50,820 nucleotides of DNA, from positions 1,124,988-1,175,807 of the forward strand of contig NZ_JH719942.1 in assembly GCF_000275825.1 (NCBI RefSeq). Direction: 5' to 3'. The position numbers were made by a program, and so were the translations under genes. Positions 1 to 50,212 of this stretch are shown here, piece after piece (the stretch's first letter is position 1; the number at the start of each line of letters is the position of its first letter). The notes under the pieces were generated by a model, which made no database searches, was not told the origin of the DNA, and saw only the letters and a list, made by a program, of their open reading frames with translations. The DNA is from Saprospira grandis DSM 2844. GTDB lineage: Bacteria > Bacteroidota > Bacteroidia > Chitinophagales > Saprospiraceae.

Positions 1-124
1 GGCTGAGGGATGGATAGCAGTGGCCCAAAGGGCCAGACCCAGCCGCCTTCGGCGGCGCAGGGCCGAGCAGACCTGCGAGCTGCGACACAGCCCGACCCGC
101 CCGAAGGGCGGGGCAGCCCCAAAA
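1..124 (-). repeat. GC-rich modular intergenic repeat (family A), copy 1, truncated at the window edge, reverse orientation, CATCCCTCAGCC subtype
   Basis: Shares cores gctgagggatgg...ggccgagcagacctgcgagc...cccgacccgcccgaagggcggggcagccccaaaa with the other copies. Confidence 0.8.
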
Positions 125-2463: not shown

Positions 2464-2583
2464 TTTTTGGGGCCTCCCGCCTTTGGCGGGCGCTACGTTT
2501 CGGGGCTCGCTGTTCGCTCGGCCCTGCGCGGGCTGCGCCCGCTTGGTCTGGCCTTCGGCCACCCCTGCACATCGCTAGGCCAA
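2464..2583 (+). repeat. Family A repeat, copy 2 (forward, CATCGCTAGGCC subtype)
   Basis: ttttggggcc...cgctacgtttcggggctcgctgttcgctcggccc...ggtctggccttcggccacc...catcgctaggcc. Confidence 0.8.
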
Positions 2584-3753: not shown

Positions 3754-3827
3754 GCTTCCATAGCTCAGTTGGTTAGAGCATCTGACTGTTAATCAGAGGG
3801 TCCCTGGTTCGAGCCCAGGTGGGAGCG
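3754..3827 (+). tRNA. tRNA-Asn (GTT)
   Basis: Cloverleaf read by eye: acceptor gcttcca/tgggagc, D-arm gctc-agttggtta-gagc, anticodon loop ctGTTaa, T-arm cctgg-ttcgagc-ccagg. CCA is not encoded. Confidence 0.85.
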
Positions 3828-3852
3828 CTACTCATACACAACAATATATTTT

Positions 3853-3926
3853 GCTTCCATAGCTCAGTTGGTTAGAGCATCTGACTGTTAATCAGAGGGT
3901 CCCTGGTTCGAGCCCAGGTGGGAGCG
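3853..3926 (+). tRNA. tRNA-Asn (GTT), identical second copy
   Basis: Exact duplicate of the 3754-3827 sequence, 25 nt downstream. Confidence 0.85.
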
Positions 3927-3930
3927 CAAA

Positions 3931-3963: not shown

Positions 3964-4809
3964 TTCCTGCAAGCGCTTTAAGGCCTTAGGCCGCAAGCGC
4001 CACAGCTTGGCCCCCGATAAAATCGAGCGCTCTGTGGTTAAATACAACTGTGCATCTGGCCCAAAACAAAGGGCCTCTTGCTGCCGCAAAGGTAAACCTA
4101 TGCGCTGCTCTAATGGTCCAAAACGGCCTCCCTCAAAAGAAAAGCGGTACAAATGCCGCATACTTAATAAATAAAGGCTTTGCTCTTCTTCTCGATAAGC
4201 CGCAGCCGTAACCGATTGCCATAAACCGCCTCTTTTTAGCTCTACGCTATCGCAGAGGCGGGCCGCCTGCGGCCCCGCCTCTTTGCCCAAGGCATAGAGA
4301 TAATGCCAGCCATCATGCGGACGATGCCTATTTTTAGTCACTATATACAAGCTATCGCCTTGGGCAAAAAGGGCCTCGGCATCAAAGTGGCGCTGCCAAG
4401 AGGCGGCGGGAAAAGCAATTTGCTCTGGATAATAAAAGCTAATTTTTTGAGGCTGAATTTCTTTTTGGTCCAAAGCCGTTTTGGGAAAAAAATAGATGCA
4501 AAGATCTTGGCGCTGATTTAAATTATTGCCCATATCGGCCAAATAGATATATGCGCTATCAGTACAAAGTGCCTCCCAGTCTATATTGGGCGCTAAAATG
4601 TTGATGCTGCGCTGCAAACGCCCCCTTTGGTCCAACTCATAGAGCAAAGGAGAATTTCCACCATCATTATGGGTATAAAAACTGCCGCTGCGGTCTGCCC
4701 AAAGTCCAGAACTTTCCGAAATAGGCAGGCGGCCCAAAGAGCTCAAGCGACAAGCCGATAAACTTAGGCAAAGGAGCAAAATACCAATACAGCTTTTCAT
4801 GGACAGCAA
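3961..4809 (-). CDS. Hypothetical lipoprotein/secreted protein (possible beta-propeller, SdiA-regulated/YjiK-like)
   Basis: 282 aa. The N-terminal signal peptide carries a lipobox-like Cys (LLLCLSLSAC). There is no catalytic motif. The family assignment is a weak impression based only on an ESSGL motif. Confidence 0.55.
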   Translation of the reverse strand: MLSMKSCIGILLLCLSLSACRLSSLGRLPISESSGLWADRSGSFYTHNDGGNSPLLYELDQRGRLQRSINILAPNIDWEALCTDSAYIYLADMGNNLNQRQDLCIYFFPKTALDQKEIQPQKISFYYPEQIAFPAASWQRHFDAEALFAQGDSLYIVTKNRHRPHDGWHYLYALGKEAGPQAARLCDSVELKRGGLWQSVTAAAYREEEQSLYLLSMRHLYRFSFEGGRFGPLEQRIGLPLRQQEALCFGPDAQLYLTTERSILSGAKLWRLRPKALKRLQE

Positions 4810-4817
4810 TTTTTGCG

Positions 4818-5060
4818 GTGGACAGGCGGCGAAGCCGCCGCAGGCCTAGCGATGCGGAGGGGTGGCCGAAGGCCAGACCGAGCCGCTCTAAGCGGCGAAG
4901 GGCCGAGCAGACCTGCGAGCCCCATAGCGTAGCGCCTGCCGAAGGCAGGAGGCCCCAAAACAGCAGCGAGCCCCATAGCGACAACAAGCCCTTTAGGGCG
5001 CAGTTCGACGACCGCAGGGAGTAACCGCCGACGAGCGAAGCGAGGCAGGAGGCCCCAAAT
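4818..5060 (-). repeat. Family A repeat, copy 3 (reverse; composite/dimeric with optional module X)
   Basis: There are two ggaggccccaaa ends, at 4950-4964 and 5047-5060. It contains gacaacaagccctttagggcgcagttcgacgaccgcagggagtaacc (module X). Confidence 0.8.
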
Positions 5061-6336: not shown

Positions 6337-6485
6337 CTTTTGGGGCTTCCCCTGCGGCCTTCGGCCTTGGGTCGGGCTCTGTCGCAGCTCGCAAGTTTGC
6401 TCGGCCCTGCAGCGCTTTCAGCGCTTTGGTCTGGCCCTTCGGGCCCCTGCTATCCATCCCTAAGCCGAGTCGCTTCGCTCCTTTT
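6337..6485 (+). repeat. Family A repeat, copy 4 (forward, CATCCCTAAGCC subtype)
   Basis: ttttggggcttcccc...gggtcgggctctgtcgcagctcgcaagtttgctcggccc...ggtctggccc. Confidence 0.8.
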
Positions 6486-6692: not shown

Positions 6693-9600
6693 TTAATTTT
6701 GCTCTAATTTTTGGAGTTCGGCCACTACTTCCATGGCCATATTGTCTAGTTCGGGTTGCTGTGCCTCTACGGCATTGCGTTCTTCTAGCCAAGCAAAGTA
6801 TTTCTCCTCAAAAGCCTTCATCTCGTTAATATCCAAATAATAGAAATTGATATTGATATGCGCTGGGGCATTGATAGTAAAGACGGCATGCATAAGATCT
6901 TGGAAATCTTCATTTTGAAAACGAGAGGGCCAAGCGGGTAAAATGATGCTCATATCAAGGGAGTAGAAATCATGGCGAACGTCTAGGTTGGGGCGTTCCT
7001 CCAAAAAGAACTGAATATTGCTTTGCAAGGGAATAGCTCCTGATTTAAAGCTATAGACATAGGCCACAATATCGTCGATTTGTTCTTTGGCTCCTTCTTG
7101 GGTATAAAAGATTTCTGGGCAGCGGGCAATTTTGCGGTTATACTCCTGCAAAACGACCTGATAGCTTTCGCCATCCTCTAGGGTTTCAATAATGAAATTA
7201 TCTTTTTTACTGGCCAACAAATCTAGTTGGTTACTGAGGTTGCGTTGCTCATCAAAAGCGCCAAATTCATAGCTTTCGAGCAAGGGACGATCTTGGTCAT
7301 TCACGAGGCGGAAAGCGTGGCGGTCTTGGGCCTGTGGGCGAAGCAAAATGTGCTCTACCACATGCATTCCCTCTGTTTGGTGGTTAATGCGGGCAAAAAA
7401 CTTAATCAGCTTTTCGAGCTCCACCTGAGCGGCCAAAATACTGCTGTACTCTCTAATTTTCACGCAGCCCAAATCGAGATTCCCCTTATAGTAAACACTA
7501 TAGATTTCCTCCCCATCACGCTCTTCCAAAAGGGCCAGATAGTTATAGCTAAAAATACCGTTGGCCAAAAGGTCTTGTATGAGCTCGTCCATATCCTGCG
7601 CTCTAAAGATAAACTTAGAGCGGTAGTCTAGGGTTTCGGGCAGACGCTCAGGAGCGGGACCAGGATCCTCTCCCTTCTCAATTTTCTCCAAACGCTCCAA
7701 TTCTACATCTAGGTCTATGTAGCCCTCGGGCAACATAGGCGACTCTAGCTGAATCAGGTCATGGAAATTATCTACCTCTTCCAAATGAGTTTCTTCATCA
7801 AAAATACGGACCAAAGATTCATTGCCTCCTTGGTTGAGGTTAAGCAACAAACACACCCGACGTTCTAGGCCAGCAACCTCCGTTTCTAAGAGCTCCAACA
7901 TCTTTTTGGTAAACTTGAGGTTGGTTTCTGCTATCGCTTCGGTCAAGGTTTCGGGCAAATCTAGATCTTTGAGCATCTTTTTGGTCTGCTCCTTGGCCAC
8001 ATCCGCCGGATCACGGTAATTGAGGGCCATAGAAAAGGCATCTCGCTGATGCTGACGAAGCGGGTAGTTCTCCCGCAGCTGCTTATACTGCTGGCGAATC
8101 AAATCTCTTTCTGCCTCTTCTTTATATTGCTTAATGAGCGGCTCAAAGAGCTCGGCCCATTCTAGCTCTTGCTCATAAATGACATTATAGAGAGCCATGT
8201 AGTTAAATCCACGGCTACGGTTTCGACTAATGTCGACATAGTTGCGCAAAAACTCCAATTTGGCATTGACCAATTCGTGCTCTGGGCTTTTGGCCTCTCC
8301 TTCCGACATATCATAGCCCACATACTGGCTTACCTTCAACAAAAAGTCAGTGGTAAAACGCTCGCCAAAACGAGCCAGTAAATGGTCCAATAAACGGTTG
8401 CGACGCTCCACAAAAGGATCAAATTCCGCTACCGTTTCTTCTAGCTTTTTCAAACGAGCCTCATTGTCCTTGCCCTTCAAGATGTATTGCATCTCTGGCA
8501 TGTTCTCTGGCAACTGAGAAAAATAACTGCGGTCCAAATCACTATCCAATGAAAAGAATTTCTTCACATTGCCCAATTGGGCCAAGTAGTTGGCCATCAT
8601 CTGCTCAAAAAAGGACAAATACCCTCTGAGCTGCTTTATCATGCCCAAACGCTCCCGAGTCGGACGCACACTATTGGGCAATCCAAAAGGACTCAACCCA
8701 TAGGTCACCGGAAAGGTATTCTGTACCGAATAATAACGCTTGATGTCATCCTCCTTCAATACCGAGGGATAATCCTTCTCATTATAGAGCATCTTCATCT
8801 GATAGCCCTTCTTATAACGAGCATAAAGCGAATACAACAACTGACTAGCCGTATTGAGGTCCAAATCATAGTTCAAACTCCCCCGCTGAAAACGAATCGG
8901 ATAAGCATCGGTTTTCCAACGCGCATCAATAGTGTCCATATCCAAAACAGGATAGGTCTTTTCCGCAATCCGAATCACATCGCCCTCTACAGGAAACCCA
9001 TCTTTCTCTACCCGAAAATAATTGATGCGGCGAACCCCCTCAATATCCGAGATGATTTCAATAATCTTAGAAATATAAACCTCCCGCTTCATCGCCTTGA
9101 GGTCCTCTTTCTTGATGATGCCATGCACCGGCACCGGCCCATCAAAAATCTCTTCAATGGCATAGCCCTCTTCCAAAAGTTCATCTATAGTATGGTACTG
9201 AATAGATGGCGTGAGATGCTCCTCCAACTTAAAGAGAATTTCAGCCAATACTTCCTCCGCCACCACATCCGAACTAATGTCCAAATCAGTATAAATAATA
9301 ATCTTGTCTACATCCAAGACCTCAATAGCCTCCAAATCCTCACAAAGATTTCGATGCGCAGCAAATAAAGCATACACCTCTCGCTTAATCGCCTGCAAAC
9401 GCTGCGGCTGACGAGCACTATCACTCACCTGCAACAAAATCCGATACAAGCCCTTAATGCCTTGCAAATGGTCCCGCACCGGCTCCACCCAAGCATTCTT
9501 CACCCCATTCACCCGATCAATAATCAAGCGGCGATAATCCTCAATGGTTACCGGATTCGTCGGCAAAATCTCCGAAGCATCATAAAAGGTGTTGTTCAAA

Positions 9601-9851
9601 GCCTGCCGACGGCCCTTCCCTCTAGCATTCAATAAATCCTGTATGCTAAAATCCGTGCGAAAGCCCAAATCGGCCAAAGCATAACAAAGTTGCTCCAATA
9701 TCGTCACCCCAGGATCATGGGTGTTGTAATCGGTCCAAACTTTACCCGATAGTTCTTGCACCATCTGCAAGCCCTCTTCCTTCAAAAAGAAGAAGTCCAT
9801 ACTCTTGTGCGGCGGGGTTTCGCGGAAAATCTGAATTGGTTTCTGCGCCAT
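6693..9851 (-). CDS. Large conserved hypothetical protein (about 1050 aa), function unknown
   Basis: Long uninterrupted ORF with coding-like composition. It has no P-loop, no signal peptide and no catalytic motif I can recognise. The start is taken at MAQKPIQ (9851). Confidence 0.7.
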   Translation of the reverse strand: MAQKPIQIFRETPPHKSMDFFFLKEEGLQMVQELSGKVWTDYNTHDPGVTILEQLCYALADLGFRTDFSIQDLLNARGKGRRQALNNTFYDASEILPTNPVTIEDYRRLIIDRVNGVKNAWVEPVRDHLQGIKGLYRILLQVSDSARQPQRLQAIKREVYALFAAHRNLCEDLEAIEVLDVDKIIIYTDLDISSDVVAEEVLAEILFKLEEHLTPSIQYHTIDELLEEGYAIEEIFDGPVPVHGIIKKEDLKAMKREVYISKIIEIISDIEGVRRINYFRVEKDGFPVEGDVIRIAEKTYPVLDMDTIDARWKTDAYPIRFQRGSLNYDLDLNTASQLLYSLYARYKKGYQMKMLYNEKDYPSVLKEDDIKRYYSVQNTFPVTYGLSPFGLPNSVRPTRERLGMIKQLRGYLSFFEQMMANYLAQLGNVKKFFSLDSDLDRSYFSQLPENMPEMQYILKGKDNEARLKKLEETVAEFDPFVERRNRLLDHLLARFGERFTTDFLLKVSQYVGYDMSEGEAKSPEHELVNAKLEFLRNYVDISRNRSRGFNYMALYNVIYEQELEWAELFEPLIKQYKEEAERDLIRQQYKQLRENYPLRQHQRDAFSMALNYRDPADVAKEQTKKMLKDLDLPETLTEAIAETNLKFTKKMLELLETEVAGLERRVCLLLNLNQGGNESLVRIFDEETHLEEVDNFHDLIQLESPMLPEGYIDLDVELERLEKIEKGEDPGPAPERLPETLDYRSKFIFRAQDMDELIQDLLANGIFSYNYLALLEERDGEEIYSVYYKGNLDLGCVKIREYSSILAAQVELEKLIKFFARINHQTEGMHVVEHILLRPQAQDRHAFRLVNDQDRPLLESYEFGAFDEQRNLSNQLDLLASKKDNFIIETLEDGESYQVVLQEYNRKIARCPEIFYTQEGAKEQIDDIVAYVYSFKSGAIPLQSNIQFFLEERPNLDVRHDFYSLDMSIILPAWPSRFQNEDFQDLMHAVFTINAPAHININFYYLDINEMKAFEEKYFAWLEERNAVEAQQPELDNMAMEVVAELQKLEQN

Positions 9852-9933
9852 AGGTCTTATCAATCTAAACAGGGCTCTGCCCTTGGGGTTCTGTTCCGTT
9901 CTAAAATATCTTGCGGTAGTGTGTGCTTGTCTC

Positions 9934-10220: not shown

Positions 10221-10390
10221 TTTTTTTGGGGCTGCCCCGCCCTGCAGGCGGGTCGGGCTGTCTCAGGGCTCGCAAGCCTGCTCGGCCCTTCGCAAAAAAG
10301 CTGCGCTTTTTTGCTCGGTCTGGCCCTGCGGGCCACCCTTGCCCATCCCTCAGCCATTAAAAGCTGGCTGCGCCAGCCCCGCCCCAACAA
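10221..10390 (+). repeat. Family A repeat, copy 5 (forward, CATCCCTCAGCC subtype)
   Basis: tttttttggggctgccccgccctgcaggcgggtcgggctg...ctcgcaagcctgctcggccc...ggtctggccctgcgggccacc. Confidence 0.8.
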
Positions 10391-12019: not shown

Positions 12020-12215
12020 GTGGCCCCGCCGTATTGGCCCAGCGCTGCGAAGGGGTGGCGCAAAGCGCCAGACCCAGGCGCTGAAAGCGCCGCAGGGCCG
12101 AGCAGACCTGCGAGCCCCGACAACAAGGACTTTAGTCCGCAGTTCGACGACCGAAGGGAGTAACCATAGCGGCGGCCGACCTAGGCAAAGCCTAGCCGGC
12201 CGCGGGCCCCAAAAC
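12020..12215 (-). repeat. Family A repeat, copy 6 (reverse; with module X)
   Basis: ggccgagcagacctgcgagccccgacaacaaggactttagtccgcagttcgacgaccgaagggagtaacc...gggccccaaaacc. It ends 10 nt before the protease start codon. Confidence 0.8.
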
Positions 12216-12224
12216 CATCTAATT

Positions 12225-14411
12225 ATGAAAGCGATTTATTTCCTTATTTTTCTGCTGCCTAGCGGCCTCTATGCTCAAAATACGAAGCTAAATATTGACC
12301 TTTTTCGCCTTTGGCAAGAGGGCGGAACCCAAAATGTGGAGCTGATCGTCCAGGGCGAGCCGCAAGCGATAAAAGAACTGGCCCAACAAACCGATAGCCA
12401 GTATAAATATGGCCTAAATGATTTGGCCGCCCTCTCTATTCCCTTGCAAAAACTGCCCATTTGGTGGGAACATCCCGCTATTCTGGGCCTGCAAGCCCAG
12501 CGCCTTAGCCCCCAGTATTTTTTTGAACAAGATAGCCTGATGCTGGCCAATAATAACGCCCGAGCCGCTCATGAAGGCTGGGGATTACCCCAATCTTTTA
12601 AGGGCCAAGGCGTGCTTGTCGGCATTATTGACGACGGCTACGAATGGCAGCATCCCGATTTCTGGCAGCCCAATGATAGCAGCAGCCGATTTCTCAGTAT
12701 TTGGGACCAAGATTATTTTTCGCCCAACTTTTTTATGGGCCAATATGGCTATGGCAGCTACTGGAATAAAGCCCAAATTGATTCGGGCCTGATCGCTCAC
12801 CCCCCAGGCGAACATGGCTCGCATGTGCTAGGTACCGCCGCCGGCAATGGCCTAGCCGCCCAAAAATATAAGGGCATTGCCCCCAAAGCCGAGCTGTTGG
12901 CCGTGGCCCTGAGCGAAGATGGACAGTTTTTGCCCCGCTTTGTGGATGCCGTCCACCATATTTTTCAAGAAGCTAAGCGATTGGGAAAAGCCTGCGCCAT
13001 TAACTCTAGTGTGGGGGCCTATTATGGCTCCCATGATGGTCAAGACTTGTATACGGCTATGATTGAAGCGATGCTAGAGGAGGAAAACGGTCGGGCTTTG
13101 ATTCAAGCAGGCGGCAATGCGCGGCAGGCAAAAATGCACTGGCAAAAGGCCCAAGCAGATAGCGGCTGTCTGGCCTTTTTGCCCCTCAATGGCCAACTAT
13201 TTCGCAGCTCGGCCTTTATTGATAGCAGCGACTGGCCACAGCTGCATTGGCAATTTGAGCTCAAGGGGAGTCAGGGACAAAGGCTGGTTCTTAGTCGCCC
13301 TTTTTCCCCTGCCGATCTGCCGCCGCATAGCCCCCTACCTGCCCAAAGAATAGACACTATATATATAGGTCCACAAGGGGCCCTGATTTTAGTACAATAT
13401 TTGGCCGAATGGCAGGGCTGCCTAGAGTGGTCCTTTCAGCTGCAGGGAAACAATTTGCAAAATCAGCAGCTTTTTTTGCATTGGAGCGGGGCGGGCAAGG
13501 TGGATATTTGGAGCCATGAGCGCAATATGGGCCTTTCGGATATTATTCTGCAGGCCAATGTTCCTCATTACATTGCGCCCGACAACCAACAAACCCTAGC
13601 CGCTTATTGGACCTGCTCGCCCAAGGTCATCACGGTGGCGGCCTACCAAAACCGAGACCAACTGCAGAATTATGCTGGCGATACGGTTTCTTTGGCCTAT
13701 GCGGGCTTTCCGATCTTTGGCATTGCCGATTTTTCTAGCCTCGGCCCTAGTCGAACGGGTCTACAAAAGCCCGATTTAACAGCCCCCGGGGGGCAGGTCC
13801 TTTCGGCAGGCAGCCTGGCCGCCCTACAAAACGCCAGAGCCAACAACTCCCCTTATTTGGACCAAGGCGGTTGGCATGTTTCGGCTAAAGGGACCTCTAT
13901 GGCGGCGCCTATGGTTACGGGGGCCGCTGCCCTCTATTTTCAATGCCAACCGCAGGCCAATTGGGCCGAACTCAAGGCCGCCCTGCTACAATCGGCCCGC
14001 AAAGATGCTTGGGTATATAGTGCTGGCGCTCCGCCCAATATAGATTGGGGAGCGGGTAAGTTAGATGTGCAGGCGCTTTTGCAAAACTGCCTAAAGCCTG
14101 GCTGTCTAGACAGCAACGCCCTCAACTTTATGCCCAACGCTTGGGTAGAAGACGGCTCTTGCTACTACCCTAGTTCCACAAATTATCTGGCCGAGCAAGG
14201 GCCAACGCTCTGGCCCAATCCCTTTAATGGCCAACTACAAATAGAATTGCCTCAGGCGGGCCAGCTTTGCTTTTATAATGTTTTGGGCCAAGAAATGGCT
14301 CGCTATATTTTGCCTGCTGGTCCAAAAACAATTTCTACCGAAGATTGGCCCAAGGGTAGCTACATCTGGAGATGGGAAGATGGACCAAGCGGAAAGCTCA
14401 TTAAGCAGTAA
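12225..14411 (+). CDS. Subtilisin-like S8 serine peptidase with T9SS C-terminal sorting domain
   Basis: Asp/His/Ser catalytic motifs are present (GIIDDGYEW; HGSHVLGTAAG; GTSMAAPMVTGAAAL). The signal peptide is MKAIYFLIFLLPSGLYAQ. The C-terminal region (about 70 aa) is of Por_Secre_tail type. The track ORF start at 12018 runs through a repeat element, so the start is set at 12225. Confidence 0.85.
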   Translation: MKAIYFLIFLLPSGLYAQNTKLNIDLFRLWQEGGTQNVELIVQGEPQAIKELAQQTDSQYKYGLNDLAALSIPLQKLPIWWEHPAILGLQAQRLSPQYFFEQDSLMLANNNARAAHEGWGLPQSFKGQGVLVGIIDDGYEWQHPDFWQPNDSSSRFLSIWDQDYFSPNFFMGQYGYGSYWNKAQIDSGLIAHPPGEHGSHVLGTAAGNGLAAQKYKGIAPKAELLAVALSEDGQFLPRFVDAVHHIFQEAKRLGKACAINSSVGAYYGSHDGQDLYTAMIEAMLEEENGRALIQAGGNARQAKMHWQKAQADSGCLAFLPLNGQLFRSSAFIDSSDWPQLHWQFELKGSQGQRLVLSRPFSPADLPPHSPLPAQRIDTIYIGPQGALILVQYLAEWQGCLEWSFQLQGNNLQNQQLFLHWSGAGKVDIWSHERNMGLSDIILQANVPHYIAPDNQQTLAAYWTCSPKVITVAAYQNRDQLQNYAGDTVSLAYAGFPIFGIADFSSLGPSRTGLQKPDLTAPGGQVLSAGSLAALQNARANNSPYLDQGGWHVSAKGTSMAAPMVTGAAALYFQCQPQANWAELKAALLQSARKDAWVYSAGAPPNIDWGAGKLDVQALLQNCLKPGCLDSNALNFMPNAWVEDGSCYYPSSTNYLAEQGPTLWPNPFNGQLQIELPQAGQLCFYNVLGQEMARYILPAGPKTISTEDWPKGSYIWRWEDGPSGKLIKQ

Positions 14412-14486
14412 ACAACGCTCAAAAAGGGGCATAAAAAAGGCCGCAGTTCCTTTTTAGGAACTGCGGCCAAGGTCTTGGCCAAGGAT

Positions 14487-15563
14487 TTAGGCGGGGGCCA
14501 AGCGTTTTTCGATATATTTAGAATTCATGATGCGGAGGATCGCCATATAATCGAGTTTAAACTCGATCAGGTCGCCAACGCCCAGTCCTTCCTCATTGCT
14601 TCCTAGGTCGATGACCACCATATCGGAGGAGGCGCCCAGCATTTTCTGTTTGGGGTCGGCCAATTGCAGATGGGCTTCATCTACATCTAGCAGGCCGAGG
14701 TCGATAATGGCGCGGACCGCTGTTTTTTGTCGAAGTTCATCTTTAAAGGTTACGGCTTCGCCCTTGAGATTAAGGCCCATCTTGCCATCGGGCACCAGGG
14801 GTTTTTCGTTCAGCTCGATAATTTGTGCATAAAGCTTAAACACATCTTGGTGCATCCGTTCGTAGGTCTGATTATTATAGACATCAGTTCCTAAATAAAG
14901 GGTTTCACCTACTCTAAAGTGGTTGATTCCTGCGGGCAGTAGATTCTGAAAAATGAGGGGGATCGTCACAGAGGAGCCGCCAGACACTAGGGGAATTTCT
15001 CGGTTAAACTTGGCCTCTACTAGTTGTTCATAGAGGCAAAGTTGGATCAATTTATCTTGGCTGGGCAAAACGCCATACATACAAGTGAGGTTGGTCCCAA
15101 TGCCCACCACTTGGATATTGGGCAATTTGAAGACCTGCTCATAAAAGTCCATAAATTCCTCTCGCATCACGCCCTCTCTAAGTTCGCCCATTTCGATCAT
15201 GATGATCACTTTATGCAATTTATTTTGGCGGGCGGCCTCTTCGGAGAGCAGGCGAATGCTTTCGATCTCCGTATTAAAGGAGATATCGGCATATTGGACA
15301 ATTTCGGGAATAATTTCTTGGGGGGGTGGCTTAATATAGATCGTCTCCACCTCTTCCGAGATAGATTTGATCATTTTGAGGTTGCTCAGGCGGGAGTCGC
15401 AGAGTTGTTTGGCGCCCAATTTAATGAGTTCCTCTAGGTAGAGGCGGTGGCCACAAAGCATTTTGGAGACCACGGCCCATTGGATATTTTTTTCTTGAAA
15501 AAGCTCCTCTAAGCGTTGGTAATTTTCGGCTAATTTTTGACTATCTAAGGTGATAAATGCCAT
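14487..15563 (-). CDS. Alanine-racemase-domain PLP enzyme (YhfX-like putative amino-acid racemase)
   Basis: An N-terminal alanine-racemase TIM-barrel-like region contains a candidate PLP lysine (AVVSKMLCGH). The family call is approximate. Confidence 0.6.
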   Translation of the reverse strand: MAFITLDSQKLAENYQRLEELFQEKNIQWAVVSKMLCGHRLYLEELIKLGAKQLCDSRLSNLKMIKSISEEVETIYIKPPPQEIIPEIVQYADISFNTEIESIRLLSEEAARQNKLHKVIIMIEMGELREGVMREEFMDFYEQVFKLPNIQVVGIGTNLTCMYGVLPSQDKLIQLCLYEQLVEAKFNREIPLVSGGSSVTIPLIFQNLLPAGINHFRVGETLYLGTDVYNNQTYERMHQDVFKLYAQIIELNEKPLVPDGKMGLNLKGEAVTFKDELRQKTAVRAIIDLGLLDVDEAHLQLADPKQKMLGASSDMVVIDLGSNEEGLGVGDLIEFKLDYMAILRIMNSKYIEKRLAPA

Positions 15564-15610: not shown

Positions 15611-15765
15611 TTTGGGGCTGCCCCTGCGGCCTTCGGCCTGGGGTCGGGCTGTGTCGCAGCTCGCAGGTCTGCTCGGCCCTGCGGCGGCTTTGCCGCCTGG
15701 GTCTGGCCTGCGGCCACTGCTGTCCATCCCTCAGCCTGCGGCCCTTTGGGCCTGTAGGAGGCCGA
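15611..15765 (+). repeat. Family A repeat, copy 7 (forward, CATCCCTCAGCC subtype)
   Basis: Near-consensus copy: ttttggggctgcccctgcggccttcggcctggggtcgggctgtgtcgcagctcgcaggtctgctcggccctgcggcggctttgccgcctgggtctggcctgcggccac. Confidence 0.85.
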
Positions 15766-16462: not shown

Positions 16463-16617
16463 GCAGGGCCGAAGGCCCGCAAAGGAGCGCAGCGACGCGG
16501 CTGAGGGATGGACAAGGGGGGCCGCAGGCCAGACCAAGGCGGCAAAGCCGCCGCAGGGCCGAGCAGACCTGCGAGCCCTGAAACAGCCCGACCCGCCTGA
16601 AAGGCGGGGCAGCCCCA
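16463..16617 (-). repeat. Family A repeat, copy 8 (reverse, CATCCCTCAGCC subtype)
   Basis: Reverse complement of the consensus. It ends gggcggggcagccccaacaaaaaaa, 17 nt before the Smr gene start. Confidence 0.85.
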
Positions 16618-21832: not shown

Positions 21833-21990
21833 TTTTTTGGGGCTGCCCCTTCGCTTCGCTGCGGGTCGGGCCATTTCGCAGCTCGCAGGTCTGCTCGGCC
21901 CTTCGGCGCTTGCAGCGCCTCGGTCTGCCGCCTGCGGCGGCCCTGCTACAGCCCCTCAGCCGATAGGCTGGGGCTCCGCCCCAGCCCCAT
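21833..21990 (+). repeat. Family A repeat, copy 9 (forward)
   Basis: tttttttggggctgcccc...gggtcgggccatttcgcagctcgcaggtctgctcggccc...ggtctgccgcctgcggcggccc. Confidence 0.8.
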
Positions 21991-23137: not shown

Positions 23138-23280
23138 AGGCGCGAAGCGCCTGGCCTAGCGATGCGGCGGGGTGGCCCGAAGGGCCAGACCAAGCAGGCT
23201 TTGCCTGCGAAGGGCCGAGCAGACCTGCGAGCCCCAAAGCGTAGCGCAGCAAGGCGAAGCCGCAGCTGAGGCCCCAAAAC
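23138..23280 (-). repeat. Family A repeat, copy 10 (reverse, CATCGCTAGGCC subtype)
   Basis: ggcctagcgatgcggcggggtggcccgaagggccagacc...gggccgagcagacctgcgagcccc...gaggccccaaaac. Confidence 0.8.
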
Positions 23281-26762: not shown

Positions 26763-26905
26763 TGGGGCCTGCCGCCTTTGGCGGCCGGGCCCTTACAGGG
26801 CTCGCAGTTCTGCTCGGCCCTGCGTCGCCTTCGGCTCCTTGGTCTGGCCTGCGGCCACCCTTACAGGCCCCTAGGCCGTTTGGCCTTCGGCCATAGGGCG
26901 GCTTA
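26754..26905 (+). repeat. Family A repeat, copy 11 (forward, CATCGCTAGGCC-like subtype)
   Basis: tttttttggggcctgccgcctttggcggcc...ctcgcagttctgctcggccc...ggtctggcctgcggccaccc...ggccgtttggccttcggcc. Confidence 0.8.
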
Positions 26906-26939
26906 GCTATGCTATTCGGTCTTTGTAGAACAATCGAGA

Positions 26940-27088
26940 CTGTTTAAAGTTTTCTGTTTCTCCTTTTTGCTGCCTAGAAACAAGCCCCTAGACTCGCTTT
27001 TTTAGACAGCCCTCTAAAGAGGGCCTTTGGAGAAGGTTCTTCTCTGCGATAACAACTGAACAAGGCCCAGTATATCAACAGTTGAGGC
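26940..27088. repeat. Second repeat family (element B), copy 1
   Basis: About 85% identical to 38858..39008: gtttaaagttttctgtttctcctttttgctgcctagaaacaagcccctagactcgc...cagacagccctctaaagagggcctttgga...aacaactgaacaaggcc...tatatcaacagttgaggc. Confidence 0.7.
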
Positions 27089-27093
27089 TAAGT

Positions 27094-27160
27094 AGTTTAC
27101 TTCCAGACCGAACTAGTTTACCCCCAGACCGAACTAGTTTACCCCCAGACAGAACTTTTG
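27094..27160. repeat. Short tandem repeat (about 22 bp x 3; agtttaccYccagaccgaact)
   Basis: Seen directly: two perfect units and one degenerate unit, immediately after element B copy 1. Confidence 0.7.
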
Positions 27161-27297: not shown

Positions 27298-27420
27298 CGG
27301 CCTAGCGATGCGGAAGGGGGCGGCGAAGCCGCAGACCAAGGCCGTCAGGCCGCAGGGCCGAGCAGCCTTGCGAGCCCTGCAGCGTAGCGCCTGCCGCAGG
27401 CAGGAGGCCCCAAAACAAAA
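27298..27420 (-). repeat. Family A repeat, copy 12 (reverse, CATCGCTAGGCC subtype, short)
   Basis: ggcctagcgatgcggaagggggcggcgaagccgcagaccaaggccgtcaggccgcagggccgagcagccttgcgagccc...ggaggccccaaaac. Confidence 0.8.
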
Positions 27421-32536: not shown

Positions 32537-32690
32537 TTTTTGGGGCTGCCCCGCCCTGCGGGCGGGTCGGGCTGTGTCGCAGCTCGCTACTCGCTCGGCC
32601 CTGCAGCAGCAAAGCTGCTTGGGTCTGCCGCCTTCGGCGGCCCTGCTTTCCATCCCTCAGCCAGTCGCTTCGCTCCTTAAAGAATAACTC
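32537..32690 (+). repeat. Family A repeat, copy 13 (forward, CATCCCTCAGCC subtype)
   Basis: ttttggggctgccccgccctgcgggcgggtcgggctgtgtcgcagctcgctactcgctcggccc... It lies 46 nt upstream of the adhesin start codon. Confidence 0.85.
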
Positions 32691-35141: not shown

Positions 35142-35171
35142 GATTATTGTTTGCCTTAGTTTGTTTGGCGG

Positions 35172-35358
35172 TCAGGGCGGGCCGAAGGCCCGCCGGCCTA
35201 GCGATGTGCAGCAGTGCGGCGCAGCCGCAGACCAAGGCCGTCAGGCCGCAGGGCCGAGCGAGTAGCGAGCTGCGAAACGACAACAAGGTCTTTAGACCGC
35301 AGTTCGACGACCGAAGGGAGTAACCGCCGACGACCGAAGGGAGGCGGAGGCCCCAAAT
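35172..35358 (-). repeat. Family A repeat, copy 14 (reverse; with module X)
   Basis: ggcctagcgatgtgcagc...gggccgagcgagtagcgagctgcgaaacgacaacaaggtctttagaccgcagttcgacgaccgaagggagtaaccgcc...ggaggccccaaat. Confidence 0.8.
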
Positions 35359-37045: not shown

Positions 37046-37190
37046 TTTGGGGCCTCCGCCTCGCTGCGCTCGTCGGCGCTACGCTTTGGGGCTCGCAGGT
37101 CTGCTCGGCCCTTCGCCAGCAAGCTGGCTCGGTCTGGCCTAACGGCCACCCCACCGCATCGCTAGGCCAGGCTGGCCTTCGGCCAGCCTT
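37046..37190 (+). repeat. Family A repeat, copy 15 (forward, CATCGCTAGGCC subtype)
   Basis: ttggggcctccgcc...cgctacgctttggggctcgcaggtctgctcggccc...ggtctggcctaacggccacc...catcgctaggccaggctggccttcggccagcc. Confidence 0.8.
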
Positions 37191-38788: not shown

Positions 38789-38857
38789 TATAAGGCCTTG
38801 CTCCTTAGTAGAATATTAGATGATCCCCTCCTCGGAGGGGATTTGAGCCTGTTTAAA

Positions 38858-39050
38858 ATTTTGTGTTTCTCCTTTTTGCTGCCTAGGGACAAGCCCCTAG
38901 GCTAGCTTTTTCAGACAGCCCTCTAAAGAGGGCCTTTGGATGAGGTTTTTCTCTGTGACAACAACTGAACAAGGCCTTGTATATCAATAGTTGAGGCCCT
39001 CGCAGAGGGCTGACTCCATTGGATTAGCCTAGGGGCTTGTCCCTGGGCGA
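38858..39050. repeat. Second repeat family (element B), copy 2, with 21-bp terminal inverted repeats
   Basis: About 85% identical to 26940..27088. The internal inverted repeat is ctgcctagggacaagcccctaggct ... agcctaggggcttgtccctgg. There are internal hairpins (gccctctaaagagggc; gccctcgcagagggc). Confidence 0.7.
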
Positions 39051-39137
39051 CTATTGGCCAAATCCCAACAAGCTAAAGGCCCAAATTTTATTCTAATACA
39101 CAAAATCCTGAACAGTCCCAGGGATTTTTTTTGTGCC

Positions 39138-39484
39138 CTATTCGACAGAGATCAAACAGCTCATCAAAGTCTTGATGCCCTATTCGACAGAGATCTAATA
39201 CCCCATCAAAGGCTTGATGCCCTATTCGACAGAGATCTAATACCCCATCAAAGGCTTGATGCCCTAGTTGACAGAGATCAAACAGCCCATCAAAGGCTTG
39301 ATGCCCTAGTTGACAGAGATCTAATACCCCATAAAAGGCTTGATGCCCTAGTTGACAGAGATCAAATACCCTATAAAAGGCTTGATGCCCTAGTTGACAG
39401 AGATCAAATACCCCATCAAAGGCTTGATGCCCTATTCGACAGAGATCTAACAGCTCATCAAAGGCTTGATGCCCTAGTTGGTCC
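39138..39484. repeat. 42-bp tandem repeat array (8 full units plus a partial unit), frame-preserving
   Basis: The units begin at 39138, 39180, 39222, 39264, 39306, 39348, 39390 and 39432. Consensus: ctaKtYgacagagatcWaaYaSCYcatMaaaGKcttgatgcc. There are no interspersed unique spacers. Confidence 0.9.
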
Positions 39485-41258: not shown

Positions 41259-41420
41259 GGACAGGCGGCGAAGCCGCCGCAAAGGAGCGCAGCGACGCGG
41301 CTGAGGGATGGAGAGGGTGGCCCGCAGGGCCAGACCGAAGCGCTTTAGCGCTGAAGGGCCGAGCAGACCTGCGAGCCCGGAACAGCCCGACCCGCCCGCA
41401 GGGCGGGGCAGCCCCAAAAA
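41259..41420 (-). repeat. Family A repeat, copy 16 (reverse, CATCCCTCAGCC subtype)
   Basis: gacaggcggcgaagccgccgc...gctgagggatgg...gggccgagcagacctgcgagcccgg...gggcggggcagccccaaaaaaa. Confidence 0.85.
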
Positions 41421-44669: not shown

Positions 44670-44832
44670 TTTTGGGGCCTCCGCAGCAAAGCTGCGGCGC
44701 TACGCTTTGGGGCTCGCAAGTCTGCTCGGCCCTTCGTTTTTCGCTACGCTCAAAAACTCGGTCTGGCCTTCGGCCACCCCGCCGCATCGCTAGGCCAGAT
44801 GGCCTACGGCCAAGGCGGCTTTGCCGCCTTCT
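44670..44832 (+). repeat. Family A repeat, copy 17 (forward, CATCGCTAGGCC subtype)
   Basis: ttttggggcctccgcagcaaagctgcggcgctacgctttggggctcgcaagtctgctcggccc...ggtctggccttcggccacc...catcgctaggccagatggcctacggcc. Confidence 0.8.
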
Positions 44833-45772: not shown

Positions 45773-45889
45773 GGCCTAGCGATGTGCAAGGGTGGCCGTC
45801 AGGCCAGACCGAGGCGCAAAGCGCCGAAGGGCCGAGCAGGCCTGCGAGCCCTGGAACGTAGCGCCTGCCGAAGGCAGGAGGCCCCAAAA
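45773..45889 (-). repeat. Family A repeat, copy 18 (reverse, short, CATCGCTAGGCC subtype)
   Basis: ggcctagcgatgtgcaagggtggccgtcaggccagacc...gggccgagcaggcctgcgagccc...ggaggccccaaaaa. Confidence 0.8.
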
Positions 45890-49965: not shown

Positions 49966-50212
49966 TTTTTGGGGCCTCCGCTGCGGCCTGCGGCCTTGCG
50001 GCGGTTACTCCCTTTGGTCGTCGAACTGCGCCCTAAAGGGCTTGTTGTCGCTTTGCAGCTCGCTGAGGTTTTGGGGCCTCCGCTGCGGCCTGCGGCCTTG
50101 CGGCGCTACGTTTCGCAGCTCGCTACTCGCTCGGCCCTGCGGCCTGACGGCCTGGGTCTGCGGCTGCGCCGCACTGCTGCACATCGCTAGGCCGAATGGC
50201 CTTCGGCCATTT
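49966..50212 (+). repeat. Family A repeat, copy 19 (forward dimer; first unit carries module X, second is the CATCGCTAGGCC subtype)
   Basis: Two ttttggggcctccgctgcggcctgcggccttgcggcg heads, at about 49968 and 50079. The first is followed by the complement of module X (ggttactccctttggtcgtcgaactgcgccctaaagggcttgttgtcg). Confidence 0.8.

What the first reader, a model, noticed from the sequence alone, without database searches (positions are those of the whole stretch)
4818..5060. An optional module X with a covarying GNNC-TTTAG-GNNC stem, and dimeric repeat copies
Four copies (4818-5060, 12020-12215, 35172-35358 and the first unit of 49966-50212) carry an extra module of about 60 bp: GACAACAAG-NN-CTTTAG-NN-CGCAGTTCGACGACCG(A/C)AGGGAGTAACC. 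The short stem flanking TTTAG covaries between copies: gccc/gggc at 4988, ggac/gtcc at 12127, ggtc/gacc at 35287 and gccc/gggc at 50030. Copies 4818-5060 and 49966-50212 are head-to-tail dimers with two TTTTGGGGCC heads each. This is evidence for module gain and loss and for tandem amplification, so the family appears to be evolutionarily active rather than a set of old relics.
Basis: seen in the sequence. Interest (0 to 1): 0.6.

Follow-up and report, generated by a model that had tools for sequence, protein, structure and literature searches.

The report
Optional hairpin module in Saprospira repeats
The "module X" is a real, optional 46-base two-hairpin add-on of a very abundant, highly structured GC-rich intergenic repeat of the marine bacterium Saprospira grandis; the add-on is gained, lost and tandemly multiplied between strains, and the repeat family has unusual properties, including neighbouring copies that almost always point in opposite directions.

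Summary
Module X (46 nt, GACAACAAG-GNNC-TTTA-GNNC-GCAGTTCGACGACC-NNN-GGGAGTAAC) occurs 4 times in the window (0 expected by chance). I found at least 62 full copies in Saprospira DNA, always with the same boundaries. Its GNNC stem is paired in 58 of 62 copies, in five Watson-Crick versions.

X belongs to a repeat of about 115 nt in Saprospira grandis DSM 2844: 19 copies in 50.8 kb, about 6% of the window. The repeat has conserved linkers, three hypervariable but always-paired hairpins, and three nested long-range helices with strong covariation.

The "dimers" are one full unit plus a 5'-truncated extension. That extension carries X or its variant X' in 24 of 25 cases, and it is iterated four times in strain Lewin.

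Orthologous sites in four relatives are always occupied. There are no empty sites and no target duplications. X, the extensions and whole hairpins nevertheless differ between strains whose flanks are 96-98% identical. The family is therefore old in place but turns over internally, most likely by recombination between copies.

Strict Watson-Crick pairing, C-GNA-G loops and independence from gene direction favour a single-stranded-DNA (REP/BIME-like) reading over an RNA one. Neighbouring copies alternate in orientation (73 of 82 pairs), and this is unexplained.

I found no description in the held literature or in Rfam.

The parts
4825..4839 (+). Optional upstream accessory hairpin (hp0), GGCGGC-GAA-GCCGCC
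   Evidence: Read from the sequence. Similar optional hairpins precede many copies.
4843..4956 (+). Complete repeat unit. Order: head GGCCTAGCGATG.., hairpin 1, AGACCGAG, hairpin 2, core GGGCCGAGCAGACCTGCGAGCCCC, GTAGCGCC, hairpin 3, GGAGGCCCC
   Evidence: Covariance-model hit of 115 bits. The minimum-energy fold equals the covariation-supported structure.
4957..4979 (+). A-run of unit 1 (AAAA) followed by the truncated core (CAGCAGCGAGCCCCATAGC) that starts the X-bearing extension
   Evidence: The same junction is seen in 25 extensions, 24 of them followed by X or X'.
4980..5025 (+). Module X, 46 nt. Hairpin X1 is 4988-4999 (GCCC-TTTA-GGGC). Hairpin X2 is 5008-5022 (ACGACC-GCA-GGGAGT, with tandem G.A mismatches)
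5026..5060 (+). Hairpin 3 of the extension plus the tail GGAGGCCCCAAAT
   Evidence: These 26 nt are absent at the orthologous site in the metagenome strain (L027).
12036..12214 (+). X 'monomer' of the subfamily with head GGCCCAGCGCTG and tail GCGGGCCCC. X lies at 12119-12164, between the P3 3' strand (GCCCC) and the P2 3' strand (ATAGCG). The element ends 10 nt before the ATG at 12225
   Evidence: The orthologous elements in the ENA strain and CCB-QB6 lack X.
35195..35358 (+). X 'monomer'. X lies at 35279-35324 with stem GGTC/GACC
   Evidence: Orthologues in CCB-QB6 and Lewin carry a unit plus extension arrays, so this form is a collapsed array.
50073..50193 (-). Complete repeat unit of the second 'dimer'
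   Evidence: Covariance-model hit of 75.6 bits
49967..50072 (-). X-bearing truncated extension. X lies at 50004-50049 with stem GCCC/GGGC; tail at 49967-49976
   Evidence: The same arrangement is present in Lewin and WH; it is a monomer without X in CCB-QB6.
1..120 (+). Family copy without X (subfamily GGCTGAGGG.../...GGCAGCCCC)
2469..2581 (-). Family copy without X
6354..6466 (-). Family copy without X
10228..10355 (-). Family copy without X. It forms the only same-orientation neighbour pair in the window, with the copy at 6354
15614..15736 (-). Family copy without X
16499..16616 (+). Family copy without X
21839..21961 (-). Family copy without X
23153..23275 (+). Family copy without X
26764..26877 (-). 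Family copy without X (subfamily with head GGCCTAGGGGCC)
27299..27411 (+). Family copy without X
32542..32662 (-). Family copy without X
37049..37168 (-). Family copy without X
41299..41415 (+). Family copy without X
44674..44796 (-). Family copy without X. The orthologous copy in strain WH carries an X extension
45773..45885 (+). Family copy without X

Best explanation
Module X is an optional accessory arm of a non-coding, intergenic, GC-rich mosaic repeat of Saprospira and other Saprospiraceae.

Shown:
- The basic unit is about 115 nt. It folds, as a single strand, into three nested long-range helices: P1 head/tail, P2 and P3. These enclose two hypervariable hairpins, with a third hairpin beside them.
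- X adds two small hairpins (GNNC-TTTA-GNNC and ACGACC-NNN-GGGAGT).
- X sits in the junction between P3 and P2 on the 3' side, in the head on the 5' side, or in a 5'-truncated 'extension' appended after the A-run of a full unit.
- The copies have sat at their chromosomal sites since before these species split.
- Modules are exchanged, inserted, deleted and tandemly amplified in place.

Inferred:
- The mechanism of this turnover is homologous recombination, gene conversion and slippage between the roughly 1,400-1,600 copies, using the conserved linkers as homology. The X 'monomers' would then arise when an extension array collapses between the two GCGAGCYSC repeats.
- The relevant folded form is single-stranded DNA of the strand that ends in CCCCAAAA. 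The family would therefore work like REP/BIME/REPIN-type elements.
- Stem covariation is kept up by selection for hairpin formation, by hairpin-templated (template-switch) correction, or by both.
- X, with its invariant loop and linkers, is most likely an extra sequence-specific recognition site. Its ligand is unknown.
For: Anatomy and recurrence of X.

Structure:
- Covariance-model alignment of 118 copies: 94.9% of cells paired against 71.7% in shuffles (0/500). 25 of 32 pairs change on both sides. Covariation score 0.489 against 0.145. Slid controls give 30-51%.
- P3 on its own: 432 of 444 Watson-Crick pairs, six fully paired types, shuffle maximum 325.
- P1 changes to GCGCY/RGCGC in other Saprospiraceae genomes.

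Mosaicism and in-place turnover:
- 34, 78 and at least 65 variants of hairpins 1, 2 and 3 in 116 copies. P3 and hairpin-1 types assort freely.
- At orthologous sites with 96-98% identical flanks, hairpin 2 differs in 7 of 9 comparisons with Lewin.
- X and extension polymorphisms.
- All mappable sites are occupied in all relatives, and there is no target duplication.

DNA rather than RNA:
- There is no wobble excess: G.T 24 against A.C 30.
- Loops are C-GNA-G or C-GNNA-G on one strand: GAA 74 against TTC 2, GCA 66 against TGC 1, GTCA 19 against TGAC 0. This is the motif of extraordinarily stable DNA mini-hairpins, whose RNA version is much weaker (PMC13037366).
- In co-directional intergenic regions 6 copies are sense and 6 antisense to transcription.

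REP-like traits:
- An unpaired GTAG lies directly 5' of hairpin 3.
- 16 head-to-head doublets are 39-314 nt apart.
- Orientation alternates.
- For comparison see PMC3733652 and PMC3116915.
Against: - No transposase or other partner protein was identified. A motif scan of 530 kb found no HUH/Y1 open reading frame, but this is a weak test for a single-copy gene.
- The unit is three to five times longer and far more elaborate than a REP. Its stems are hypervariable, whereas REP stems are conserved within a family.
- The second subfamily lacks the GTAG tag.
- Several copies must be transcribed. The 12036-12214 copy ends 10 nt before a start codon. A-rich single-stranded linkers and a multi-helix junction are typical of structured RNAs.
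- The CCCCAAAA strand folds better than shuffles under RNA as well as DNA parameters, with z from -1.8 to -2.4. The DNA-versus-RNA call therefore rests on indirect arguments.
- Gene conversion is inferred from patterns, not observed.
Confidence: 0.55

Rival explanations
1. The family is a cis-acting structured RNA element in untranslated regions, for example an mRNA stabiliser, a processing site or an insulator. X would be an extra RNA arm that binds a protein.
For: - Nested long-range helices with strong covariation.
- The unpaired regions are A-rich, seen as a strong positive AT skew of + copies.
- The minimum-energy RNA fold of the CCCCAAAA strand reproduces the covariation model with z from -1.8 to -2.4. 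The opposite strand gives z from +0.5 to -1.5.
- In 10 of 19 copies the tail lies 10-90 nt upstream of a start codon in the sense orientation, and at least the 12036 copy must lie in a 5' UTR.
- There is a conserved U.G pair in P2.
Against: - Orientation relative to transcription is random: 6 sense and 6 antisense in co-directional spacers.
- G.U pairs are no more frequent than A.C mismatches (24 against 30), unlike RNA families under structural selection.
- The loops are the DNA mini-hairpin type, which is much weaker in RNA.
- No Rfam family matches.
- The X extension has no thermodynamic signal on its own (z +0.4).
Confidence: 0.2
2. The family is a currently mobile non-autonomous transposon, either REPIN- or MITE-like and moved by a RAYT/IS200-type or other transposase. 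X copies and 'dimers' would come from separate insertion events, for instance insertion of an X-carrying short element into the A-run of a resident copy.
For: - Very high copy number, about 0.32 copies per kb over 428 kb.
- A GTAG tag next to hairpin 3, and head-to-head doublets like REPINs (PMC3116915, PMC3733652).
- The X extension always has the same 5' end and always follows an A-run.
- HUH-type transposition leaves no target duplication, which fits.
- The family is present in several Saprospiraceae genomes.
Against: - No empty site was found among 15 orthologous sites compared across genomes that are about 88-94% identical to the window overall.
- X appears and disappears inside resident elements as a replacement patch, with AAAG standing in its place. 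It is not a clean insertion.
- No transposase was found in the sample.
- An alternating array cannot grow by single insertions without breaking alternation, yet 73 of 82 neighbour pairs alternate.
Confidence: 0.15
3. The family is a retroposon-like (SINE-like) element. A structured RNA with a 3' oligo-A tail would be copied back into DNA, and the truncated second units would be 5'-truncated copies inserted into A-tails.
For: - One strand is RNA-like.
- An A-run of variable length follows the element, 0-9 nt with a mode of 4.
- Head-to-tail appended 5'-truncated units.
Against: - The truncation point is the same in all 25 extensions rather than variable.
- There are no target-site duplications.
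- Sites are conserved across species.
- There is no wobble pairing.
- No reverse transcriptase was seen in the sampled loci.
Confidence: 0.03

Closest known systems
REP / BIME elements of enterobacteria and pseudomonads (GTAG-tagged REP superfamily; PMC3733652)
   Same: Both are high-copy, extragenic and GC-rich hairpins. Hairpin 3 carries an unpaired GTAG directly at its 5' side. Both show mosaic combinations of hairpins and fixed linkers. Copies lie in alternating orientation and in head-to-head pairs. Both are vertically persistent.
   Different: The Saprospira unit is about 115 nt with three nested long-range helices and three hairpins, not a single 20-40 bp palindrome. Its stems are hypervariable while its linkers are conserved, which is the reverse of REPs. 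One subfamily lacks GTAG. Alternation extends across whole genes (kilobases), not only within clusters. No RAYT is known here.
REPINs with RAYT transposases (PMC3116915)
   Same: Inverted doublets with a short spacer occur (16 pairs, 39-314 nt apart). They are predicted to fold in single-stranded DNA. They show long-term residence in one lineage.
   Different: Most copies here are singletons separated by genes. Each single unit is already a closed multi-helix structure. The partner transposase has not been identified.
ERIC/IRU elements of enterobacteria (from my own knowledge, not tested here)
   Same: Both are intergenic imperfect palindromes of about 127 bp. Size variants are produced by insertions of defined extra segments at fixed internal positions, and by deletions.
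   Different: There is no sequence relation. ERICs are one long hairpin, are much rarer (tens to hundreds of copies), and lack hypervariable sub-hairpins.
GC clusters and palindromic repeats of yeast and algal organelle genomes (from my own knowledge, not tested here)
   Same: Both are GC-rich hairpin modules scattered in AT-richer spacers. Both are thought to spread and reshuffle by recombination without a dedicated enzyme.
   Different: Those are organellar, short and have no fixed multi-helix architecture. No relation was tested.
DNA mini-hairpins GCGNAGC / GCGNNAGC and single-strand initiation signals (PMC13037366)
   Same: The loops of the variable hairpins are C-GNA-G or C-GNNA-G on one strand (GAA, GCA, GTA, GTCA, GTTA). 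CCGAAGG, as in ssiA, occurs in hairpin 1 and in hairpin X2.
   Different: The known examples are single sites in phage or plasmid origins and promoters, not a dispersed chromosomal family. No priming or promoter role was tested.

Membership tests
GTAG-tagged REP (PMC3733652) | Small (20-40 bp) palindromic unit | tested here: not met
   The unit is 111-131 nt with three hairpins and three long-range helices. Only the sub-part GTAG plus hairpin 3 (about 25-30 nt) has REP dimensions.
GTAG-tagged REP (PMC3733652) | Unpaired GTAG (or CGTC) motif at one end of the palindrome | tested here: inconclusive
   GCGTAGCGCC directly precedes hairpin 3 in the GGCCTAGCG subfamily (49 of 115 parsed copies). 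X ends in GTAA(C/A). The GGCTGAGGG subfamily (34 copies) has CCCGACCC instead.
GTAG-tagged REP (PMC3733652) | High copy number in extragenic space | tested here: met
   19 copies in 50.8 kb, all between open reading frames. 137 copies in 428 kb.
REPIN / RAYT system (PMC3116915) | The replicative unit is an inverted REP doublet with a spacer that forms one hairpin | tested here: inconclusive
   16 head-to-head pairs lie 39-314 nt apart and there are no tail-to-tail pairs. Most copies, including all 19 in the window, have their nearest inverted neighbour at least 422 nt away with genes in between.
REPIN / RAYT system (PMC3116915) | A single-copy RAYT (Y1/HUH transposase) gene flanked by the repeats | not testable with these tools
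   Only about 12% of a genome was sampled. A motif scan of 530 kb found none. Saprospira genomes are not in the searchable genome collection.
MITE | Terminal inverted repeats plus target-site duplication, and presence/absence polymorphism | tested here: not met
   The only terminal complementarity is the 5-bp P1 helix. The longest shared flank word is 4.17 nt against 4.29 in shuffles. No empty site among 15 orthologous sites.
Any curated RNA family (Rfam 15) | Covariance-model match | tested here: not met
   Only two tRNA-Asn genes reach the gathering score. No hit with E-value up to 1 lies on a repeat, apart from one weak chance-level match (Giardia U2 snRNA, 24.8 bits against a gathering score of 100, E = 0.13) overlapping the copy at 1-120.
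Integron attC array | Structured recombination sites in one orientation separating gene cassettes, next to an integrase | tested here: not met
   Orientation alternates in 73 of 82 neighbour pairs. No integrase was seen in the gene lists of the fetched loci.
DNA mini-hairpin motif (PMC13037366) | C-GNA-G or C-GNNA-G loop closed by G-C pairs | tested here: met
   On the CCCCAAAA strand the counts are GAA 74, GCA 66, GTA 15, GTCA 19, against 2, 1, 1 and 0 for their complements.

The most novel reading that the evidence does not exclude
The repeats may form a genome-wide system of oriented, folded single-strand elements whose neighbours interact. The nearly perfect alternation of orientation across genes (73 of 82 pairs), together with the rule that two copies in one spacer are always head-to-head, would then reflect a function or a constraint at chromosome scale. 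Candidates are paired boundary or looping sites, or a layout that keeps about 1,500 recombining repeats from deleting genes. An alternating array is preserved by every recombination between its members. X would be an add-on recognition module in such a system. This would be a kind of bacterial repeat system not described before.
Probability: 0.2. Interest if true: 0.85.

Novelty: new variant of a known kind. Interest (0 to 1): 0.6.

Why it matters
Bacterial genomes rarely tolerate repeats, yet about 6% of this window is one structured repeat, present in nearly every second spacer.

The family combines three features:
- REP/BIME-like traits.
- Covariation of the quality seen in functional RNAs, but with DNA-type signatures.
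- An orientation rule between neighbours separated by whole genes.

It offers a natural system for three questions: how hairpin complementarity is maintained (by selection or by template-switch repair), how thousands of recombining repeats coexist with essential genes, and whether such elements organise chromosomes.

In practice, these repeats break short-read assemblies of Saprospira (contigs end inside them). The variable extension arrays could also serve as strain markers.

Tried and rejected
- Exact look-up of one flanking protein failed, probably because I chose the wrong start codon.
- The genome-collection scan for X found nothing, because Saprospira is evidently not in that collection. 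This is a property of the collection, not a sign that X is rare.
- Viral contigs hold neither X nor an X-like hairpin. A phage origin is not supported.
- Rfam gave nothing at gathering score or at E-value up to 1 for the repeats, apart from one weak chance-level match on the copy at 1-120. At E-value up to 10 it gave nothing credible for the X-like hairpin element in L020.
- MAFFT alignments of units with hairpins of different lengths were not structurally consistent. I replaced them with a covariance model built from five length-matched seeds.
- A fuzzy-regex search for X timed out. I replaced it with nhmmer.
- The target-site-duplication test was negative.
- The search for empty sites was negative. 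One large length difference, at 14411-14487, turned out to be an unrelated 41-nt tandem array.
- An HUH/Y1 motif scan of open reading frames found nothing.
- I rejected a coding reading, because hairpin lengths vary out of frame and the open reading frames over the repeats are spurious.
- I rejected a terminator reading, because the element is followed by an A-run, not a T-run, and separate terminator hairpins lie next to several copies.
- I rejected pairing between neighbouring elements in one transcript, because neighbours carry different P3 variants.
- Literature searches for Saprospira repeats found no description.

Full report
**Source and setting.** The window is from Saprospira grandis DSM 2844. 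Four window proteins match its records exactly (EJF52688, EJF52689 and others; the contig is 4.42 Mb). The host DNA is about 47% G+C. The finding lies in one of 19 GC-rich (66-72%) intergenic islands. The flanking genes are ordinary housekeeping genes: MqnC, an S8 peptidase, a PorE-like OmpA protein, ribosomal protein S1 and an ABC-F ATPase.

**The observation.**
- The X pattern matches four times and never in shuffles.
- Both long copies have two TTTTGGGGCC ends.
- A metagenome scan for the X core returned 48 loci, all from one JGI metagenome that holds a Saprospira-like genome about 88-90% identical to the window. Viral contigs hold none.
- An nhmmer search over all Saprospira DNA fetched found 83 hits, 62 of them full-length with the same boundaries, GACAAC...GAGTAA(C/A).
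- Stem X1 is paired in 58 of 62 copies, in five Watson-Crick versions. The four mispaired copies are each a left arm of one version joined to a right arm of another.
- The TTTA loop is invariant.
- Hairpin X2 (ACGACC-NNN-GGGAGT, with tandem G.A mismatches) shows one compensatory C-G to T-A change in three copies.

**The family.** All 19 window copies share the core CAGACC...AGGGCCGAGC. I read each unit on the strand that ends in CCCCAAAA. Its parts, in order, are:
- the head (GGCCTAGCGATGYG.. or GGCTGAGGGATGG..);
- hairpin 1;
- the linker AGACCNAG;
- hairpin 2;
- the core GNAGGGCCGAGC-N5-6-GCGAGC;
- a 4-nt word complementary to the end of the head;
- GTAGCGCC (or CAGCCCGACCC);
- hairpin 3;
- the tail GGAGGCCCC (or GGCAGCCCC) followed by an A-run.

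The head and tail pair as helix P1 (GGCCT/AGGCC, GGCTG/CAGCC or GGCCC/GGGCC). GC..ATGY pairs with RCGT..GC as P2. The end of the head pairs with the word after GCGAG as P3.

*Support for the structure.*
- P3 is Watson-Crick in 432 of 444 positions, with six fully paired versions: GCAG/CTGC, GGGG/CCCC, AGGG/CCCT, GTGG/CCAC, GCGG/CCGC and GCCG/CGGC. Shuffles gave a mean of 288 and a maximum of 325.
- A covariance model built from five length-matched copies with this structure finds 118 copies in the window plus the metagenome loci, including all 19 window copies.
- On that alignment 94.9% of cells are paired, against 71.7% in shuffles. 25 of 32 pairs change on both sides. The covariation score is 0.489 against 0.145, and slid controls give 30-51%. 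The alignment is fitted to the model, which inflates these numbers somewhat. The P3 count was made independently of the model.
- In uncultured Saprospiraceae genomes the family is present with P1 changed to GCGCY/RGCGC. This is a further compensatory change, and it shows the family is older than the genus. The exact X core is absent outside Saprospira.

**What the 'dimers' are.** In both long copies the second unit begins right after the A-run of a full unit, with ..AGCAGCGAGCYSC. That is the 3' half of the core. It lacks the head and hairpins 1 and 2.
- Of 25 such junctions in all loci, 24 are followed by X or by its variant X', GACAACCAG-CCTC(R)AAGAGG-CGCCAGTTCGA...
- The extension can be iterated. 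There is a trimer in L037 and four tandem X' extensions in strain Lewin.
- X also occurs directly after the core ('monomers' at 12119 and 35279) and in the head between GGC and GATG (L026, L040, L041, L044, L057).
- In structural terms X always sits in a junction next to P2.
- Other optional modules exist. One is a 36-nt insert inside the core (module Y). Others are upstream hairpins.

**Comparison of orthologous sites.** I fetched the regions orthologous to most of the window from four sources:
- S. grandis Lewin;
- S. grandis WH;
- Saprospira sp. CCB-QB6;
- an ENA contig close to Lewin.

Overall identity to the window is about 93-94% for Lewin and WH and about 90% for CCB-QB6.
- Every window site that holds an element and could be mapped (15 sites) holds one in the same orientation in every relative.
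- No target-site duplication is detectable.
- Inside the elements, change is rapid. With flanks 96-98% identical, the comparison with Lewin shows differences in hairpin 1 at 5 of 9 sites, hairpin 2 at 7 of 9, hairpin 3 at 6 of 9 and the P3 type at 5 of 9. These are often whole-stem replacements, and some are loop flips (AAA to TTT).

*X polymorphisms.*
- At the 12020 site the window has X where the ENA strain and CCB-QB6 have AAAG or GAAG.
- At the 35172 site the window has a collapsed X monomer. CCB-QB6 has a unit plus an X'-X-X'' extension. Lewin has a unit plus four X' extensions.
- At the 4818 site the metagenome strain has the same dimer and the same X, but lacks the 26-nt hairpin 3.
- Upstream of the TPR gene only WH has an extension.
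- Upstream of the ABC-F gene CCB-QB6 has a plain monomer.

*Diversity across copies.* In 116 copies, hairpins 1, 2 and 3 have 34, 78 and at least 65 variants. The commonest P3 and hairpin-1 types occur in all nine combinations.

Taken together these data show mosaic reshuffling. The conserved linkers are the obvious homology for gene conversion and unequal exchange, but that mechanism is inferred.

**Which nucleic acid folds?** Evidence for a strand-specific single-stranded form:
- Loops are GAA, GCA, GTA, AAA, GTCA and GTTA on one strand, and almost never their complements.
- G.A mismatches number 92 against 24 for their complements.
- P2 holds a conserved T.G pair.
- The minimum-energy fold of the CCCCAAAA strand reproduces the covariation model under both DNA and RNA parameters (z from -1.5 to -2.7). 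The other strand does so less well.

Evidence that the form is DNA rather than RNA:
- Outside the conserved T.G pair, G.T pairs (24) are no commoner than A.C mismatches (30).
- C-GNA-G and C-GNNA-G are the motifs of extraordinarily stable DNA mini-hairpins (Tm about 76 C). The RNA version melts near 39 C. CCGAAGG occurs in a primase recognition hairpin (PMC13037366).
- Orientation is unrelated to the direction of transcription.

Evidence for RNA: some copies must be transcribed, and the architecture looks like a structured RNA. I rate DNA above RNA, but without experiment this is not settled.

**Orientation rule (found in passing).**
- Along the window the copies read + - + - - + - + - + - + - + - + - + -, so 17 of 18 neighbour pairs are inverted.
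- Over all independent loci, taking the union of regex and model hits, 73 pairs alternate and 9 do not (binomial p = 1.4e-13).
- Tail-facing neighbours are never closer than 1,372 nt (n = 29).
- Head-facing neighbours are often 39-314 nt apart (16 of 44).
- There are no tail-to-tail doublets.
- Alternation is independent of gene direction.

By simple bookkeeping (my inference), an alternating array is preserved by any homologous recombination between its members, whether deletion, inversion or excision and reintegration. A single new insertion necessarily breaks it. Alternation would therefore fit a family that now evolves by recombination and that is selected against direct neighbours. It could also reflect a pairwise function. 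This remains unexplained.

**Comparison with known kinds.** Nothing in Rfam matches. Three literature searches found no description of Saprospira repeats.
- The closest kinds are REP/BIME and REPIN elements. Shared traits are the extragenic location, GC-rich hairpins, a GTAG tag next to hairpin 3, head-to-head pairs, alternating orientation and vertical persistence (PMC3733652, PMC3116915).
- Defining features are not met or could not be tested. The unit is not a 20-40 bp palindrome. One subfamily lacks the tag. The stems, not the linkers, are the variable part. No RAYT is known.
- I therefore describe the family as working like a REP/BIME-type mosaic element, but I do not file it as a member.
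- MITE, integron attC and retroposon readings fail on tested features.

**Verdict.** 'Active' should be read as recombinational turnover of ancient resident copies, not as shown transposition. The larger result is the family itself.

Noticed in passing
whole window (copies at 1, 2469, 4843, 6354, 10228, 12036, 15614, 16499, 21839, 23153, 26764, 27299, 32542, 35195, 37049, 41299, 44674, 45773, 50073) and loci L007-L054: Neighbouring family copies almost always have opposite orientation. This holds for 17 of 18 pairs in the window and 73 of 82 overall (p = 1.4e-13), and it does not depend on gene direction.
   Followed up: partly
L009, L022, L024, L026, L030, L031, L032, L042, L046, L053, L002:2263-2528, L004:5193-5475 and 9592-9887: When two copies share one spacer they are always head-to-head: 16 pairs lie 39-314 nt apart. 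Tail-facing neighbours are never closer than 1,372 nt.
   Followed up: partly
L007:880, L012, L015, L016, L019, L026, L032:6468, L034:10898: A second optional module (Y) is inserted inside the core: GAGCGA-[CCCGACCAACGGGAGCCGACGCAGCGAAGCAAGTAA]-CAGCGAGC. A variant of X (X') has the hairpin CCTC-RAA-GAGG. Optional hairpins occur upstream of the head, for example at window 4825-4839, 16467-16480 and 35166-35190.
   Followed up: partly
window 45806 region against L002/L005:14093; window 6354 copy against L057: At orthologous sites some hairpins differ only by a flipped loop, for example GGCGC-AAA-GCGCC against GGCGC-TTT-GCGCC. The whole hairpin appears to have been inverted in place.
   Followed up: no
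L020:4560-4640(+) and 4680-4745(-), L011:500-575(-): A different, AT-richer element is GCGAAC-AAG-GAC-TTTA-GTC-CGYCA-GTTCGC followed by CCCTGGGC-TTCA-GCCCAGGG. Its first hairpin matches the 5' half of X, with an intact outer stem. It may be a relative or the source of X. There is no Rfam match.
   Followed up: partly
window 14411-14487 against L055:11077-11620, L057 and L058: The relatives carry an array of about 500 nt made of 41-nt tandem repeats between the peptidase and racemase genes. The unit differs between CCB-QB6 and Lewin. The window lacks the array, with a deletion at an AGGGGCA microhomology.
   Followed up: partly
window 26936-27088 and 38845-38997: Two copies (90% identical) of an unrelated, AT-richer repeat of about 155 nt with a CAGCCCTC-TAAA-GAGGGCC hairpin. 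A 21-nt tandem repeat follows the first copy, at 27093-27156.
   Followed up: no
window 39134-39478: A 42-nt tandem repeat (8.2 copies, 91% matches) lies in the spacer or short open reading frame before the gene at 39544-41226. The length of this region differs strongly between strains: 755 nt here and 177 nt in WH.
   Followed up: no
window 28837-30112 (inside the 1672-aa gene 27473-32491, minus strand): A 264-nt repeat (4.8 copies) contains many short GAT-rich sub-repeats. It probably encodes aspartate-rich calcium-binding-type repeats of a giant secreted protein.
   Followed up: no
L001, L003, L006 (Logan short-read contigs of about 4.1 kb): Short-read assemblies of Saprospira end exactly inside the repeats on both sides of the S1/ABC-F gene pair. 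The family fragments such assemblies.
   Followed up: yes
window 3754-3828 and 3853-3927: Two tandem tRNA-Asn(GTT) genes, 25 nt apart, with identical Rfam scores.
   Followed up: no
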